This document shows positions 44,001 to 50,000 of a stretch of DNA of 64,000 nucleotides, in pieces (within the stretch, counting starts at the first letter, position 1; every line of letters starts with the position of its first letter). Source of the stretch: an uncultured Gemmatimonadota bacterium (GTDB lineage: Bacteria; ARS69); NCBI GenBank assembly GCA_964471155.1, contig CAYYFX010000001.1:45596-109595 (forward strand), read 5' to 3'. The position numbers are program-made.

Positions 44001-47000
44001 CCTCCGCGAACTGGAGAACCCGGAGGTGGGCATGAGCACGACGCGGTGGATCCTCCCGATCGCGGGACTGGCGGTGGTGGCCCTGGCGTGGGCGGGCTGC
44101 GGCCGGGCGGGCGGGGCCGAGGGCCGGGCCGGCGACGGCGGCGGCACCGGCGACGCGACCGCCCGCACGAGCCCGGTGCCGAATCCGACCGGCTCGTGGC
44201 GGACGTTCGAGAAGCCGTCCGAGGAGGTGCTGCGGAAGCACCTGTCCGACCTCCAGTTCCGCGTGACGCAGCGCGAGGGCACGGAGACGCCGTTCCGGAA
44301 CGAGTACTGGGACGAGCACGGCGAGGGGATCTACGTGGACATCGTGTCCGGCGAGCCGCTGTTCAGCTCCGCCGACAAGTTCGACTCCGGCACCGGTTGG
44401 CCGAGCTTCACGAAGCCGCTGGTCGACGCGAACGTCGTGCGGCACGAGGACCGTTCCCTCGGCATGGCGCGCACCGAGGTCCGCTCGAAGCGCGCGGACT
44501 CGCACCTCGGGCACGTCTTCGATGACGGGCCCGCGCCGACGGGGCTCCGGTACTGCATGAACTCGGCGGCGCTGCGCTTCGTGCCGGCGGCGGAGCTGGA
44601 GGCGCAGGGATACGGCGAGTTCGCGCCGGCGTTCGGCTCCTCCGCGAAGGCGCCCGCGACGGCGGGCGCGTCCGCCGCGGCGCCCGCGGGCACCGAGGTG
44701 GCCGTGCTGGCCGGCGGCTGCTTCTGGGGCATGGAGGACATCCTCCGCGACATCCCCGGCGTGGTGGACACGCAGGTGGGCTACACGGGCGGCGTCGTGA
44801 AGAACGCCACGTACGAGGACGTCCACACCGGAAGGTCCGGGCATGCGGAGGCGGTGCGCATCGTCTTCGATCCGGCGCGCCTGTCCTACGCGGAGTTGCT
44901 GGACTGGTTCTTCCGCATGCACGACCCCACCACGAAGAACCGTCAGGGGAACGACATCGGCTCGCAGTACCGCTCCGCGATCTTCTTCACGAGCGAAGCG
45001 CAGCGCGCGACCGCCGAGCGCGTGAAAGCGGAGGTGGGAGCGGCCGGGAAGTGGACGCGACCCATCGTGACCGAGATCACCGCGGCCGGTCCGTGGTACG
45101 ACGCCGAGGAGTACCACCAGGACTACCTGGAGAAGGACCCGGGCGGGTACACGTGCCACTACCTCAGGTGGTGAGGCGCGACCCGCCGCACGCGCGGCCG
45201 CCGGGCTCTTGACGGGTGCGACACCTGTCGATAATCTCACGACAGTTGTCGCCCGAGGAGGACGCGCCCGGCATGGACACCTCGCAAATCATTGACATCC
45301 TTGGCGTTACCTCGGCAGGCGCGGGCGGGGTCCGCACGCCCATGGATCTCGTGGATCTCGGGGAGCGCGGGCTCACCAAGTCCTCCCTCGTGCGCCTCGC
45401 GGGCTACCTGCGGCTGAGCGTCTCCCAGCTGGCGCACCTCCTGCCCATCAGCGAGCGGACGCTGCAGCGGTACTCCGGGCGCCGGCACCTCAGCCCGGCG
45501 GTGTCCGGGCAGATGATCGGGATCGCGAAGGTGGCGGCGCGCGGCGTGGAGGTGTTCGGGGAGCGGGACCTCTTCCTGCAGTGGCTCTCCCGCCCGAGCC
45601 TGGCGCTGGGGCAGCGCCGCCCGGTGGACCTGCTGTCGTCCCCGGTCGGACTGGACCTGGTGCTGGACGAGCTCGGGCGGATCGAGCACGGCGTCCCGTC
45701 GTAGCTTGATCGTCTACCGCATCGCGAGGAGCGTCTGGGCGGAGGACCTCTCGGGCGCCGGCGCGCGGCTGCACGGCGGACGCTGGAACCCGAAGGGCAT
45801 GGCCGTCCTGTACACGGCGCCAAGCCGCGCCCTGGCCACGGTGGAGTTCCTCGTGCACGTGGACCCGCTGCTCCTGCCGCGGGACCTCCGTATGGTCTCG
45901 ATCGGGATCCCGGACGACGCTTCGGTCACGCACGTGGACGCGGCGGCGTTGCCCGCCGGGTGGGACGGACACCCGCCGCCCGCGGAGCTCGCGCGCATCG
46001 GCGCCGCCTGGGCCGCCGGGCGAGAGAGCCTGGTGCTCGAGGTGCCGTCGGCGGTCGTGCGCGGGGACTTCCTCCGCCTCCTGAACCCGCGGCACCCCGA
46101 GGTGGACGGCGTCCGCATCGTGGAGAACGTGGCGTACGCCCTGGACCCGCGGCTCGCGCGCCGCGCGCCGGCCCCCGCGAAGCCGGCGCGGCGACGCGCA
46201 CGCCACTGACGGAAGGGCGGCGCCGGGCCCTCGCCCGGCGCCGCCGTCAGAAGGCGCTGATGAGCCCCACGGTCGCCCGCAGGACGGACGCCTCGATGTC
46301 CTTCTCCCCCTCCAGGAGCACGCGGAAGTTCCGGTCCTGGAGCCAGTTCAACGTGAGCGACGCCGTCTCGCGATCGGCGCTGTCGTCGTCCGAGTCCACG
46401 CGGTTGTAGAGCCCGCTCACGGCCCACCGCCCGTTCTCGCCCTGCGGGAACCAGTGCAGCTCCGCGAAGCCGCCGTTCGTCTCCACGGTCTGCCCGCCGC
46501 CCGTGAAGAGCGGATCGTCGTCCTCCCGGTACAGGAACTGCACGTTGAGCTGCGCCTTGTCCTGGAAGTCCACCACGAGGTCCGGTCCCGCGTAGATCGT
46601 GCGGTTCTCCACGCCGCTCGTCGTCTCTTCCGATTTCCCCCAGTAGCCGAAGCCGCCCACGCGCACCGCGCCCGTCTGCCGCACCAGCCGCAGCGCCACG
46701 TTCTTGAGCGTGTCGTTGTCGTGGTTCCTGTAGTCCGACACGCCGGCGTCCTCCGCCGCATGGATGCCGTTGCCGTTCAGCACCATGGCCACGAGGTCCA
46801 CGTCCCCCGGCAGACCGCGCGCCAGCATCACGCCGCGGTCGTAGGTGAGATCCACCGGGGAGTCGCCCACGCGCGTCTTGAACACGAGGTAGTCGGATCG
46901 CTCCAGGCGAAGCTCCCGCTTGAACAGCGGGTCGCACACCTGGAACTGCCCGAACACCAGATCCACGCCGCTGCCCGCGAGGTCGTTCACCTGGAGGTAC

Positions 47001-50000
47001 GCGTCCTCCAGGCCCACCACCTCGCCGCGCTCCATCAGGAAGTAGAAGTAGTACGACACCCGGCTGCTGACCGGTCCGCCGGACAGGATCTTCCACACCC
47101 ACGGCGTCTCGAAGTCGAACTCCGCGTCCGCGTCCTCCTTGTACGACGCGTAGCCTTCCAGCCGGACCGCCAGCGGGAGATCGCGGGCCAGGCGCAGGAG
47201 CGGATCGCCCACGTCGTACGTGGAGCGCGCCGGCTCCTGGCCCTCCTCCATGCGGAAGCCGCGGCCGGCGAACTCCTCGCCGTACGGCTTCAGCCGCGGG
47301 AAGGGCGCGTGGCACGTGGTGCACGAGATCTGGTACTTGCGGGCGAACGCCGGGATGGCGCCCGCGTCCGTGGCGGACAGCGCCACCGCCAGCACGCCGA
47401 GGGCCGCCGCCCCGCCGATGCGCAGGCCGATGCGTCGCATGGTTCCTCCCCCCGTCCCGCTACAGGACCGTGAACGTGGTGGTGTGCGTGTTGATGCGGA
47501 CGGGCTCGGACTCCTCGCGCGGCACGCCGAGGTACTCGGCCACCGACGACACGAGCCGCGAATACCACACCTCCGCGGTCACGGTGACCGGGCCGGGCGC
47601 CACGTCGGCCGGCAGCGTCCACGTGAAGGTCTCGTTCACGGCCGCGAGCGGCGCGAGCCGGTAGTCCGGACCGAACGACGCCGTGTTCCACTGCGCGATG
47701 GTCATGCGACCCTGCGGATCCAGATACGGCAGGCGGAAGATGCGGTCGCCGTCCGGCACCTCGCCGTCGCGCGGCAGCCCGGCGAACCCGGACTTGCCCT
47801 CGATGTCGCCGATGTCCTGGTAGGCGAGCGTGGCGGCCGACGCGATCGTCAGTTCCTCGCCGGCGAAGCCCTTCGCGTCGACGGGCAGGTGCCAGCTCCG
47901 TCCCTTCGCATCCGTGGCGGTCACGTGCAGCCACAGCACGCGCTCCTCGGCGGAGCCCGTGGGCACCTTGTGTCCGGCCTTCGCGTTCACGAGCGTGGCC
48001 GTGAGCTGCACCTTGTCGCCCGGCTCGGCCTCGCGGGTCTCGGGGTGGATGCGCACCTCGATCACGCCGGAGAGCTTCCCGGGGTCGTGCGCGCCGTGGA
48101 ACAGGTGCTGGCGCGCGTCGGGCAGCACGTCGCCCATGGCGGCGGTGGCCGCGGCGGCCGGCGGCATGTGGCACTCCTGGCACACGATGCCCGCCTTGCC
48201 GTGCGGGCCGTCCTTCCACTCGAGATGCGTGGACTTCACCCACATCCCGAACGGGTCCTTCTCGTTGTGGCACGTGCCGCAGAACTCCGCCGTCTTCAGG
48301 AACGGGTTCGCCACGGTCTCGTGGTGCGGGCTCTCGCGACCGCGCGTGCCCTGCTTCAGCTCGCCGGGCTCCGAGATCCAGTTGAAGTTGAACGGGGTGT
48401 CGCCCTCGAAGCCGGTGATCGTGTGGCAGACGTCGCACGACACGGACTCGTTCGCGCGGGACTTCTCCTCCGGGTGCGGCGGCGGGATGTCGCCCGCCAG
48501 GAACGCGAGCGGCGCGTGGCACCCGTTGCAGCCGGCCTTCACGCCGGCCACCTTCGGCTCCTTCTCCGCGTGCGGAACGGCGAGCTTGAAGTACTCGATC
48601 TCGTCCCAGTGGTGCGTGTACGCCTGGGACATCATCGCCTGCTCGTGCTGGCGGGCGAAGTCCACGTGGCAGGTGGCGCAGGCCTCGGGGCGCTCGTACT
48701 GGTCGTACTTGCGGGTGCCCAGCGCGGCGTCGCCGGCGGGCGTGCCGGAGGCGGTGGAGGCGGCAGCGACGACGAGGGCGAGCGAAACCACGGGCAGCGC
48801 TCGGGCGGCCCGGGCCCGGCGGGGCACGTTCATGGGTGGTCCTCCGGGCGCCGACGGCGGGGGGCCACGTCCGGAGCGGCACGGTCCAAGTTGCGGGGCG
48901 CCGGGGACGCGGGCAAGGCCGCCCGTGCGGGGGCCGGCCGATCGTCTTCACCCGATACGGGGTGGTGGTGCGCGTGCCGCTACCCGATGCGGGGAGAGCG
49001 ACGTCAGGCCGCCGGCGGTCGCGGGGCGTCCCGCACCGCGGCGTGCAGGATCTCGGCGAGCAGCGATCCCCGCCAGTACTCCACGTGCGCCGCGAGCGGC
49101 GTGCTGGCGGCGGGGTCCTCCCGGTTGACCACATGCCCCTCGGCTTCCGGGTGCTCGTCGTAATAGTCGATGGCGCCGCTGATCCAGTCGTTGCGCGAAT
49201 GCAGGTTCACCCACGGCGGGCGGTCGTAGGACTGGATCATCGGCTGGACCGATGCGGCCAGCGCCTCCCGCAGCACGGACGTTCGCTCGTCCGCCTGGGT
49301 GCGGAAGAGGAAGGCGGTCTTGTCCAGCGGGGAGCCGAACGTGACGAACAGCGGCGTCCGCTCGCGGACGCGCAGCACGCCATCCCACCCGCGGTCCTCG
49401 TTCAGGATGGCGTTCAGCGAGTCGTACGCCACGACCGAACCGAGCGAGTGGCCGGCCACGACGATGCGGTCGTACTCCAGCGCCGGCGCGCCGGGGGTCC
49501 GCGCCGCGTATACCGCGCGGAAGACGGCCGCCGCCGCGCCCTTGATGGCCGCGCGCGTCTCGTGGAAGCGGTTGACGCGGTGGCCGGACACGTAGATCGC
49601 CACGTCGCCCACGTATTGCATGAGGAAGTGCTCGACGCCGCGGGCCACCAGCATGACCAGCGCCCACAGCACGAGCGCCACCGGCCAGTACGCGCGGCCG
49701 AGATCGCGCCATGCGGGAAGCGCGTCCGGCGCCGCGAAGGCGACCGCGGCGGTGGCCACGAGCGCCGCCGCGGCGAGGATCGGCGTGGCCAGCGCCGTCC
49801 AGATCAGGCCGCGCGTGAGCACCGCGGCCGCCCGCGACGCCTTCGGATGCGCGCGATGCACCGACGCGATCGCCCCGCCCGCGAGCCCGAGAACGGCGAA
49901 GCCCAGCAGGTTGGCCCAGAGGATCGGCAGCCGGAGGGCCTCGGCCACCGGGCTGCCGGCGCCGATCCCGAGCAGCGACGCGCCGAGGAGGGCCGGAATG

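What the first reader, a model, noticed from the sequence alone, without database searches (positions are those of the whole stretch)
46247..48833. Candidate porin-cytochrome conduit: pentahaem cytochrome c followed by a beta-barrel outer-membrane protein that carries its own CxxCH
The upstream gene encodes a secreted 457-aa cytochrome with five CxxCH motifs. Twenty nucleotides downstream lies a 397-aa protein with a signal peptide, a haem-binding CTTCH inside a conserved-looking block (PAFARKYQISCTTCHAPFPRLKPYGEEF), an alternating beta-strand pattern and a C-terminal Phe typical of outer-membrane barrels. The arrangement recalls MtrAB/PioAB and Geobacter Pcc porin-cytochrome complexes for trans-outer-membrane electron transfer. 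The barrel, however, is much smaller than MtrB and appears to carry a haem itself, which has not been described for these systems.
Basis: partly seen in the sequence, partly recalled or inferred. Interest (0 to 1): 0.65.

Follow-up and report, generated by a model that had tools for sequence, protein, structure and literature searches.

The report
Cyc2-type haem porin with pentahaem partner
An outer-membrane pore protein with its own haem, of the same type as the known bacterial iron oxidase Cyc2, is encoded next to a five-haem cytochrome; the pore type is already known, but its strict pairing with this partner across many little-studied phyla appears unreported and gives a way to test what these so-called iron-oxidase genes really do.

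Summary
Two co-oriented genes on the minus strand, 19 nt apart, encode a 457-aa secreted cytochrome with five CxxCH motifs and a 397-aa protein with one CxxCH and a C-terminal Phe.

The interpretation needs correcting. A barrel that carries its own haem is already described. The 397-aa protein matches the published Cyc2 signature exactly (AxPxFAR[Q/K][T/Y]...CxxCH...PxL). It models as a 16-strand porin whose best structural match is OprP, as reported for Cyc2. It is not MtrB/PioB/Pcc-like.

What seems new is the pairing. The PHC gene sits immediately upstream of the Cyc2-like gene in all 82 testable loci, which carry at least ten phylum-level labels. 362 species genomes encode the barrel. The two genes are co-inherited, and nothing else around them is conserved. 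I found no paper that describes this pairing.

Most likely this is a two-protein electron route across the outer membrane for iron. The direction of electron flow is unresolved.

The parts
47460..48833 (-). Gene for a 457-aa PHC-family pentahaem cytochrome c. It has a Sec signal peptide without a lipobox. CxxCH motifs are at residues 52-56, 102-106, 133-137, 185-189 and 218-222.
48069..48716 (-). Alpha-helical five-haem 'cap' domain of the partner (about residues 40-255).
   Evidence: Secondary structure of the model. All five CxxCH motifs align to T. tepidum c552. There are exactly 10 Cys, all in CxxCH.
47463..48062 (-). C-terminal Ig-like beta-sandwich 'stem' domain of the partner (about residues 258-457).
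48841..48845 (-). Shine-Dalgarno GGAGG, 7 nt upstream of the partner's ATG.
   Evidence: Sequence.
47441..47459 (-). 19-nt intergenic spacer holding the Shine-Dalgarno GGGGGAGG (47445-47452). It implies co-transcription and coupled expression.
   Evidence: Sequence.
46247..47440 (-). Gene for a 397-aa Cyc2-type fused monohaem cytochrome-porin.
47357..47440 (-). Signal peptide of the barrel protein (residues 1-28, ending in AGA). The mature N-terminus would be IPAFARKY...
   Evidence: Read from the sequence: a basic n-region, a hydrophobic h-region and an AxA cleavage site. No predictor was run.
47291..47359 (-). Cyc2 signature AIPAFARKY-QIS-CTTCH-APF-PRL (residues 28-50). The haem-binding CTTCH is at 47309-47323.
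   Evidence: Matches the published AxPxFAR[Q/K][T/Y] + CxxCH + PxL signature, with the same spacing as in the Caballeronia and Ralstonia Cyc2-like proteins. Invariant in the family. Present in 78 of the 78 related loci whose N-terminus is on the contig.
46250..47170 (-). 16-strand beta-barrel porin domain (residues 91-397), ending in Phe.
46216..46245 (.). Perfect 13-bp GC stem with a 4-nt loop between the barrel gene's stop codon and the convergent RES toxin gene. It is a likely bidirectional transcription stop without a T-run.
   Evidence: Sequence. Fold -39.6 kcal/mol, z -5.0, 0 of 200 shuffles as stable. Not found by the consensus terminator scan, which requires a T-run.

Best explanation
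This is a self-contained two-gene operon for moving electrons across the outer membrane. The second gene makes a Cyc2-type protein. After signal-peptide cleavage, a roughly 60-residue N-terminal segment carries one c-type haem and is fused to a 16-strand porin embedded in the outer membrane. A small soluble redox species, most probably Fe2+/Fe3+, reaches that haem through or at the pore. The first gene makes a soluble pentahaem cytochrome of the PHC family, with a helical five-haem cap and an Ig-like stem. It is exported by Sec and most probably stays in the periplasm. It lacks the Cys/Sec catalytic pair of its enzymatic relative MccSep. It therefore most likely acts as the dedicated periplasmic redox partner of the Cyc2-like haem, filling the role that the dihaem Cyc1 or HiPIP plays next to proteobacterial cyc2. 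It would carry electrons between the outer membrane and inner-membrane respiratory complexes encoded elsewhere. I commit to inward flow, Fe(II) oxidation, as the single most likely direction, at about 40%, because all three biochemically tested Cyc2 proteins oxidise Fe(II). Outward flow is nearly as likely. Shown here: gene structure, family signatures, folds, strict synteny and co-inheritance. Inferred: haem attachment, localisation, physical contact between the two proteins, the substrate and the direction.
For: The Cyc2 signature, length and spacing are met exactly. The model has 16 strands and OprP is the best structural match, as published for Cyc2 of strain PV-1. The N-terminal cytochrome domain is homologous to proteobacterial Cyc2-like proteins whose loci also encode c-type cytochromes (plus a HiPIP in Caballeronia). 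The partner is homologous in fold and sequence to T. tepidum c552 and weakly to ExtKL, and it has no Cys outside its CxxCH motifs, whereas MccSep needs C239 and U325. The PHC gene is immediately upstream on the same strand in 78 of 78 testable genome loci, in L091 and in 3 of 3 loci reached from the PHC side. Nothing else in the flanks is conserved. Pairwise distances of the two proteins correlate at r = 0.80, with 0 of 999 Mantel permutations reaching that value. The 19-nt spacer with its own Shine-Dalgarno and a strong hairpin after the second gene indicate one transcription unit.
Against: No experiment supports haem attachment, localisation, contact between the proteins or any iron activity. 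The barrel's sequence does not align with other Cyc2 barrels; this is also true among accepted Cyc2 clusters (PMC5566968). Assignment to a Cyc2 cluster with the FeGenie HMMs could not be run. The haem segment is modelled at low confidence (pLDDT 27-42 for the 10-residue blocks spanning residues 21-70). No respiratory genes lie near the module in the window or in Anaeromyxobacter. The partner's characterised relatives are low-potential or reductive. Hosts include iron reducers such as Anaeromyxobacter, and, from my own knowledge, Thermoanaerobaculum. Both points argue against inward flow.
Confidence: 0.55

Rival explanations
1. The hardware is the same but electrons flow outward. The PHC collects electrons from the quinol-oxidising machinery and passes them to the Cyc2-like haem, which reduces soluble or chelated Fe(III), humic quinones or another extracellular acceptor. 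In this clade, 'Cyc2' would then be a reductase or a bidirectional valve rather than an iron oxidase.
For: The characterised PHC relatives are low-potential (T. tepidum c552) or reductive (MccSep polysulfide reductase). Hosts include the iron reducer Anaeromyxobacter (PMC10734482), Thermoanaerobaculum MAGs and Ignavibacteria. [quoted passage not shown] Most hosts are heterotrophs without carbon-fixation pathways (PMC9769843).
Against: All three biochemically tested Cyc2 proteins oxidise Fe(II). Multihaem bis-His cytochromes such as MtoA and PioA also work in the oxidative direction. In this clade the conserved His of the 'SMH' motif is replaced by Met, which could raise the potential of one haem. 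No potentials are known for either protein.
Confidence: 0.28
2. The PHC is an enzyme rather than a wire. Like MccSep, it would reduce or oxidise a small periplasmic substrate (a sulfur, selenium or nitrogen species). The Cyc2-like porin would let that substrate in, or would feed electrons to the enzyme.
For: It shares fold and family with MccSep/ExtKL, an enzyme whose gene neighbour ExtI is, from my own knowledge of the Geobacter literature, an outer-membrane barrel (only links MccSep to extKL). The branched five-haem core is the one used by multihaem enzymes. More distant PHC subfamilies also sit next to a putative small barrel.
Against: The protein has no Cys or Sec outside its five CxxCH motifs, so the MccSep catalytic pair is absent. 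It has no CxxCK motif like NrfA. The invariant and near-invariant His and Met residues are numerous enough to give every haem a sixth ligand. The barrel's own invariant haem motif would be unnecessary for a plain substrate channel.
Confidence: 0.1
3. This is the first reader's model: an MtrAB/PioAB/Pcc-type porin-cytochrome complex in which the multihaem cytochrome is threaded through the barrel to span the membrane.
For: A multihaem gene and a barrel gene are adjacent and always syntenic. There are weak Pfam hits to MtrC/MtrF-type haem domains.
Against: The barrel has 16 strands and matches general porins. MtrB-type sheaths have 26 strands and Pcc/Ext barrels about 20-21 (the latter from my own knowledge). 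The barrel has no Pfam or NCBIfam match at all, which includes the MtrB/PioB model. The partner scores 18.7 bits against the DmsE/MtrA decahaem model, whose cut-off is 192, and it is a globular cap-and-stem protein of about 45 kDa that cannot fit inside a 16-strand pore.
Confidence: 0.03

Closest known systems
Cyc2 fused cytochrome-porins (A. ferrooxidans Cyc2, Leptospirillum Cyt572, M. ferrooxydans Cyc2 of strain PV-1; FeGenie clusters 1-3)
   Same: Both have a signal peptide and then a single CxxCH about 11 residues into the mature protein. Both carry the AxPxFAR[Q/K][T/Y] and PxL motifs with identical spacing. Both are about 400 aa, form a 16-strand OprP-like barrel and end in Phe. Among Cyc2 proteins in general, only the N-terminal domain is conserved in sequence, and that is what is seen here.
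   Different: The gene context differs. Proteobacterial cyc2 genes sit with cyc1-type dihaem c4 cytochromes, HiPIP, rusticyanin or cox genes. This clade is always preceded by a PHC pentahaem gene. Within this clade the barrel is well conserved (45-98% identity). Hosts are mostly heterotrophic FCB-group bacteria, Acidobacteriota, Gemmatimonadota and Myxococcota rather than lithotrophic iron oxidisers. The cluster was not assigned here; published trees place Acidobacteriota and Gemmatimonadota Cyc2 homologues in cluster 3 (PMC9671151).
Thermochromatium tepidum pentahaem cytochrome c552 (PDB 5ze8)
   Different: c552 has no assigned function; a role in sulfur metabolism has been suggested. In the aligned stretches c552 has a Cys outside its CxxCH motifs (in 'GVPLCQTG') that the window protein lacks. 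The window clade has Met where c552 and most other PHCs have the His of the 'SMH' motif. I could not examine the gene context of c552.
Geobacter ExtKL / MccSep (polysulfide reductase selenoprotein) and the ExtHIJKL cluster
   Same: Both belong to the PHC superfamily (NCBIfam NF040886, 3e-13, 49 bits). Both are periplasmic five-haem cap-and-stem proteins. From my own knowledge, ExtKL is likewise encoded beside an outer-membrane barrel gene (ExtI).
   Different: The match is far below the equivalog cut-off (49 vs 250 bits). The window protein lacks the haem-ligating Cys239 and the Sec/Cys325 that define MccSep. From my own knowledge, ExtI is a roughly 21-strand barrel without a haem, and the rhodanese ExtH and ExtJ have no counterparts here.
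MtrCAB / MtoAB / PioAB porin-cytochrome complexes
   Same: The overall task is the same: moving electrons across the outer membrane with a barrel plus a multihaem cytochrome encoded side by side.
   Different: Those systems use a 26-strand sheath around a decahaem wire, and the barrel has no haem. Here the barrel is a 16-strand porin that carries the membrane-level haem itself, and the multihaem protein is a separate globular partner.

Membership tests
Cyc2 fused cytochrome-porin (criteria of Keffer et al. 2021, PMC8406198) | N-terminal signal peptide | tested here: met
   MRRIGLRIGGAAALGVLAVALSATDAGA|IPAF... has a basic n-region, a hydrophobic core and an AxA site. This was read by eye; no SignalP run was available.
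Cyc2 fused cytochrome-porin (criteria of Keffer et al. 2021, PMC8406198) | A single CxxCH near the N-terminus | tested here: met
   One CTTCH at residues 40-44. C40 and C43 are invariant and H44 is conserved in at least 90% of 66 homologues.
Cyc2 fused cytochrome-porin (criteria of Keffer et al. 2021, PMC8406198) | AxPxFAR[Q/K][T/Y] motif upstream of CxxCH, said to be unique to Cyc2 | tested here: met
   The window protein has AIPAFARKY, three residues before CTTCH, the same spacing as in the Caballeronia and Ralstonia Cyc2-like proteins. The strict motif is present in 65 related loci, and R or H variants in 13 more, giving 78 of 78 where the N-terminus is on the contig.
Cyc2 fused cytochrome-porin (criteria of Keffer et al. 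2021, PMC8406198) | PxL motif four residues after CxxCH | tested here: met
   CTTCH-APF-PRL. P48, R49 and L50 are invariant.
Cyc2 fused cytochrome-porin (criteria of Keffer et al. 2021, PMC8406198) | Length of at least 365 aa | tested here: met
   397 aa.
Cyc2 fused cytochrome-porin (criteria of Keffer et al. 2021, PMC8406198) | 16-strand porin domain structurally like OprO/OprP | tested here: met
Cyc2 fused cytochrome-porin (criteria of Keffer et al. 2021, PMC8406198) | Sequence similarity to a recognised Cyc2 (blastp 1e-5 or a FeGenie cluster HMM above its cut-off) and placement in cluster 1, 2 or 3 | tested here: inconclusive
As a proxy, hhalign against Burkholderiales and Methylocystis Cyc2-like proteins gave 97.7% probability and E 2e-12 over the cytochrome domain only. 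These taxa are the ones the SSN study links to A. ferrooxidans Cyc2. Published work puts Acidobacteriota and Gemmatimonadota homologues in cluster 3.
Cyc2 fused cytochrome-porin (criteria of Keffer et al. 2021, PMC8406198) | Fe(II) oxidase activity and outer-membrane location | not testable with these tools
   This needs biochemistry or genetics.
MtrAB / MtoAB / PioAB porin-cytochrome complex | MtrB/PioB-family barrel of about 26 strands without a haem | tested here: not met
   The barrel has no Pfam or NCBIfam hit of any kind, 16 strands and its own haem motif.
MtrAB / MtoAB / PioAB porin-cytochrome complex | MtrA/DmsE-family decahaem periplasmic cytochrome | tested here: not met
   The partner has five haems. 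TIGR03508 scores 18.7 bits against a cut-off of 192.2. Its fold is c552-like.
MccSep / ExtKL polysulfide reductase family | Five CxxCH motifs on a cap-and-stem fold | tested here: met
MccSep / ExtKL polysulfide reductase family | Conserved Sec/Cys catalytic residue (U325) and Cys ligand of haem 2 (C239) | tested here: not met
   The protein has exactly 10 Cys, all in CxxCH, and no in-frame UGA. NF040886 scores 49 bits against a cut-off of 250.
PHC pentahaem cytochrome superfamily (T. tepidum c552, ExtKL, cable-bacteria sPHC; PMC11976967) | Homology in sequence and fold to c552 (5ze8) | tested here: met

The most novel reading that the evidence does not exclude
The Cyc2 homologues that surveys use to call heterotrophic Gemmatimonadota, Acidobacteriota, Calditrichota, Krumholzibacteriota, KSB1, Ignavibacteria and others 'iron oxidisers' belong to a distinct, horizontally mobile two-gene system, Cyc2 plus a PHC pentahaem cytochrome. 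This system would not be an Fe(II) oxidase. It would export electrons to Fe(III) chelates, humics or another soluble acceptor, or handle a non-iron substrate, using a low-potential PHC wire. It would be a minimal outer-membrane reductive conduit, and a widespread annotation would be wrong.
Probability: 0.3. Interest if true: 0.7.

Novelty: new variant of a known kind. Interest (0 to 1): 0.45.

Why it matters
Cyc2 is the main marker gene used to infer microbial iron oxidation from genomes and metagenomes. Its authors say that the function of the divergent homologues, especially cluster 3, is unverified. This work shows that one large clade, present in 362 species-level genomes in the collection scanned, is a fixed two-gene unit with a pentahaem partner of a family otherwise linked to low-potential or sulfur-reducing chemistry. 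More than 2,000 protein clusters of this clade turned up in public data. The result gives three things. First, a concrete second component to include when annotating or expressing these genes. Second, a reason for caution before calling these heterotrophs iron oxidisers. Third, a tractable system: two small genes and at least one cultured host, Anaeromyxobacter soli SG29. That system could settle which way electrons flow through a Cyc2-type porin and how its single haem hands electrons to the periplasm. The barrel itself is not new.

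Tried and rejected
- Pfam and NCBIfam gave nothing for the barrel.
- Sequence searches of the PDB with the barrel protein and with its profile gave only noise.
- The AlphaFold-database Foldseek library, which might have named Cyc2 orthologues, was unavailable.
- I looked for reference Cyc2 sequences in the supplements of Keffer et al. and found none. 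Direct comparison with Cyc2 of strain PV-1, A. ferrooxidans Cyc2 or the FeGenie HMMs was therefore impossible. I used Cyc2-like proteins from Ralstonia, Caballeronia and Methylocystis replicons instead.
- Profile-profile alignment never extended into the barrel.
- Consensus promoter and terminator scans found nothing in this 72% GC DNA.
- A search for further conserved neighbours found only lineage-specific genes, such as MacAB-type efflux genes in some Acidobacteriota. I rejected these as partners.
- The 502-aa ORF upstream (49004-50512) is conserved only in the closest MAG, so it is not part of the module.
- No respiratory or ccm genes lie in the window or beside the module in Anaeromyxobacter.
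- A nine-sequence alignment of distant PHCs was too diverse for a locus scan; a three-sequence one worked. It showed that distant PHC subfamilies are not linked to Cyc2-like genes, so the idea of a general PHC-Cyc2 rule was rejected.
- The apparent '4-haem' partners proved to have CxxxCH at haem site 1.
- The c552 paper (PMID 29691716) is not held.
- The third protein-homology search was left unused because no available query would have reached a named reference Cyc2.

Full report
**Observation.** On the minus strand, 47460..48833 encodes a 457-aa protein with a Sec-type signal peptide and five CxxCH motifs at residues 52, 102, 133, 185 and 218. It has no other cysteine. Nineteen nucleotides downstream, 46247..47440 encodes a 397-aa protein with a signal peptide ending in AGA, one CTTCH at residues 40-44, and a C-terminal Phe. 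Both reading frames have the codon bias of real genes in this 72% GC DNA. They are the only genuine genes with CxxCH in the window. Each ATG is preceded by a Shine-Dalgarno sequence. A perfect 13-bp GC hairpin (-39.6 kcal/mol, z = -5.0) follows the second stop codon. The pair therefore looks like one transcription unit.

**Source organism.** The window is collinear, at 86-97% DNA identity, with a contig of an uncultured Gemmatimonadota MAG (L001).

**What the barrel protein is.** Pfam, NCBIfam and PDB sequence searches return nothing for it. Every database copy is called a hypothetical protein.

- It matches the published diagnostic signature of Cyc2, the fused monohaem cytochrome-porin that oxidises Fe(II) in Acidithiobacillus, Leptospirillum and Mariprofundus. 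Keffer et al. (PMC8406198) define Cyc2 by five features: a signal peptide, a single CxxCH, an AxPxFAR[Q/K][T/Y] motif said to be 'unique to Cyc2', a PxL motif four residues after the haem motif, and a length of at least 365 aa.
- The window protein reads A-I-P-A-F-A-R-K-Y / QIS / CTTCH / APF / P-R-L. These positions are invariant in 66 homologues, apart from a few (A28, K35, H44) conserved in at least 90% of them.
- An AlphaFold2 model (pLDDT 75, pTM 0.74) has exactly 16 strands after a poorly modelled haem segment.
- A translated search of plasmids and megaplasmids hit only the N-terminal 50 residues of proteins in Ralstonia, Caballeronia, Paraburkholderia and Methylocystis. The three I fetched (Caballeronia, Ralstonia, Methylocystis) carry the same motif with the same spacing, and the Caballeronia and Methylocystis genes sit beside c-type cytochromes (plus a HiPIP in Caballeronia), which is the classical cyc2 context. 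The Ralstonia record carries no annotation at that locus.
- Profile-profile comparison gives 97.7% probability (E = 2e-12) for the cytochrome domain and nothing for the barrel. The literature describes the same pattern among accepted Cyc2 clusters.

I conclude that the protein is a Cyc2-type fused cytochrome-porin. The only membership test I could not run is scoring with the FeGenie HMMs and placement on the tree. Published trees put Cyc2 homologues of Acidobacteriota, Bacteroidota and Gemmatimonadota MAGs in cluster 3. A survey of Indian Ridge vents reports Cyc2 homologues in the same unusual set of phyla seen here, and locus L061 is a MAG from that study.

**What the partner is.**

- Generic multihaem Pfam models hit it weakly. 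The best NCBIfam match is the Geobacter ExtKL model, far below its cut-off (49 bits against 250).
- Its AlphaFold2 model is confident (pLDDT 83, pTM 0.82). It has a helical haem-binding cap (residues about 40-255) and a beta-sandwich stem (residues about 258-457).
- The family profile also finds 5ze8 by sequence (E = 3.7e-11), with all five haem motifs aligned.
- Recent papers group c552, Geobacter ExtKL and the small pentahaem cytochromes of cable bacteria into a 'PHC' family. They also show that ExtKL, renamed MccSep, is a periplasmic polysulfide reductase whose catalysis needs a Cys ligand on haem 2 and a selenocysteine.
- The window protein has no cysteine outside its CxxCH motifs. It cannot use that mechanism and is not a MccSep family member.
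- The superfamily is large: 3059 cluster representatives match at E <= 1e-3.
- In this clade the conserved His of the 'SMH' motif after haem 1 is replaced by Met (AMMSQA). This hints at a His/Met haem. That is an inference, not a result.

**The pairing.** This is the part I could not find in the literature.

- A scan of one genome per species found 362 genomes that encode a relative of the barrel. I examined the best 80 loci.
- In 78 of them the PHC gene lies immediately upstream on the same strand. In the other two the contig ends at the barrel gene.
- The same holds for one metagenome locus found from the PHC side (L091). It also holds for three loci reached through independently found PHC homologues; in one of these the barrel gene is split by an assembly frameshift. 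That makes 82 of 82 testable loci.
- All partners keep five haem sites. Seven, from Ignavibacteria, Zixibacteria and Bacteroidetes, have CxxxCH at site 1.
- No other flanking gene family is shared by more than 17 of the 80 loci. Those that recur are lineage-specific efflux genes on the other strand.
- Pairwise divergences of the two proteins are strongly correlated (r = 0.80; 0 of 999 Mantel permutations reach it). The cytochrome evolves more slowly than the barrel: mean distance 0.32 against 0.47.
- The loci carry at least ten phylum-level labels: Gemmatimonadota, Latescibacterota, Acidobacteriota, Eisenbacteria, Krumholzibacteriota, KSB1, Calditrichota, Zixibacteria, Ignavibacteria/Bacteroidota, Fibrobacteraceae, and Anaeromyxobacter with other 'delta' MAGs. 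Identities do not follow taxonomy. The Anaeromyxobacter PHC is 72% identical to the window's, while those of Krumholzibacteria are about 55%. The cassette therefore appears to move horizontally.
- The linkage is specific to this PHC clade. In 80 loci of more distant PHC subfamilies, only L091, whose PHC belongs to the window's clade, has a Cyc2-signature gene within 5 kb. Forty of those loci instead have a haem-less protein of about 260 aa, with a signal peptide and a C-terminal Phe, just upstream.
- Literature searches that combined Cyc2 with pentahaem, multihaem, ExtKL or the host taxa found no description of the pairing. That is absence from the held library, not proof of novelty.

**Mechanism.**

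- A 16-strand porin cannot sheathe a globular protein of about 45 kDa, so the MtrAB-style 'wire in a sheath' model does not apply.
- The simplest reading is the Cyc2 model with a different periplasmic partner. The barrel's own haem exchanges electrons with a small soluble species at the pore. The PHC, lacking a catalytic site and exported without a lipid anchor, relays electrons to or from inner-membrane complexes encoded elsewhere.
- Iron is the likeliest substrate, by homology.
- The direction of flow is open. The three tested Cyc2 proteins all oxidise Fe(II). On the other hand, the partner's relatives are low-potential or reductive. Hosts include iron reducers and many heterotrophs. FeGenie itself hedges on cluster 3.
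- My estimates are about 40% for inward flow, about 30% for outward or bidirectional flow, and about 10% for an enzymatic PHC. The remainder goes to other possibilities.

**Verdict.** It is wrong on the family analogy and on the claim that the haem-bearing barrel is new. The barrel is a member of a known kind. The obligate Cyc2-PHC operon is a new variant of that kind. It is of moderate interest, mainly because it bears on how Cyc2 hits are interpreted in environmental genomics and because it offers a small, testable system.

Noticed in passing
window 45216-46209 (+): A RES/Xre (ParT/ParS-type) toxin-antitoxin pair lies directly downstream of the module. It is absent from the otherwise collinear Gemmatimonadota MAG locus L001, so it is a strain-specific insertion of about 940 bp.
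   Followed up: partly
window 11516-13159 (-): A 547-aa protein has a thiol-activated (cholesterol-dependent) cytolysin domain (PF01289, 3e-41) plus a Laminin_B domain. This is an unusual family to find in a Gemmatimonadota genome.
   Followed up: no
window 8871-11444 (+), 14896-16401 (-), 18428-21826 (-): Three large proteins end in a FlgD_ig-type C-terminal domain. One also has a cohesin domain, and a beta-helix protein lies at 17109-18416. Together they look like a cluster of secreted or surface proteins.
   Followed up: no
window 22189-25047 (+) and 30413-32929 (+): Two paralogous Ser/Thr protein kinases are fused to long TPR arrays.
   Followed up: no
window 39270-43892 (-): This stretch holds a PAS histidine kinase, a single-domain response regulator and a hybrid PAS kinase with a receiver domain. 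They lie 2.4 kb from the module on the same strand. In Anaeromyxobacter (L059 7050-8351) a dCache_3 sensor protein precedes the module. A possible regulatory link was not examined.
   Followed up: no
L086 (ORF ending just before 3166), L108, L125 and 37 other metagenome loci: More distant PHC pentahaem subfamilies (P0245-like) have a ~260-aa protein immediately upstream. It has a signal peptide and a C-terminal Phe but no CxxCH and no Pfam match. It may be a small haem-less outer-membrane barrel, which would suggest that PHC cytochromes in general work with barrels.
   Followed up: partly
L002 7110-8390 and 8665-9945: This MAG has two tandem PHC copies (70% and 86% identical to the window protein) ahead of its Cyc2-like gene.
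   Followed up: no
L063, L068, L069, L071, L073, L074, L075 (PHC genes): In the Ignavibacteria, Zixibacteria and Bacteroidetes members, the first haem motif is CxxxCH (CGTSCH or CGASCH) instead of CxxCH.
   Followed up: yes
window 48630-48632 (M68 of the PHC, within AMMSQA): Most PHC relatives have 'SMH' after the first haem motif. The Cyc2-linked clade has an invariant Met in place of the His, together with an invariant THHWDEIEYF block. One haem may therefore be His/Met-ligated, and of higher potential, specifically in this clade.
   Followed up: partly
window 49004-50512 (-): A 502-aa membrane protein has only weak lipase / alpha-beta-hydrolase matches. It lies 170 nt upstream of the module on the same strand and is conserved only in the closest MAG (84% identity).
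   Followed up: partly
L165 5449-6545: In this long-read assembly the Cyc2-like gene is split by a frameshift. The gene caller's truncated product picked up a weak Pfam Phenol_MetA_deg (outer-membrane barrel) hit, the only Pfam signal seen for any barrel of this family.
   Followed up: yes
window 43909-45174 (+): A MsrB-MsrA fusion (SelR + PMSR domains) has an N-terminal hydrophobic segment followed by Cys (LAWAGC), so it may be an exported or lipid-anchored methionine sulfoxide reductase.
   Followed up: no
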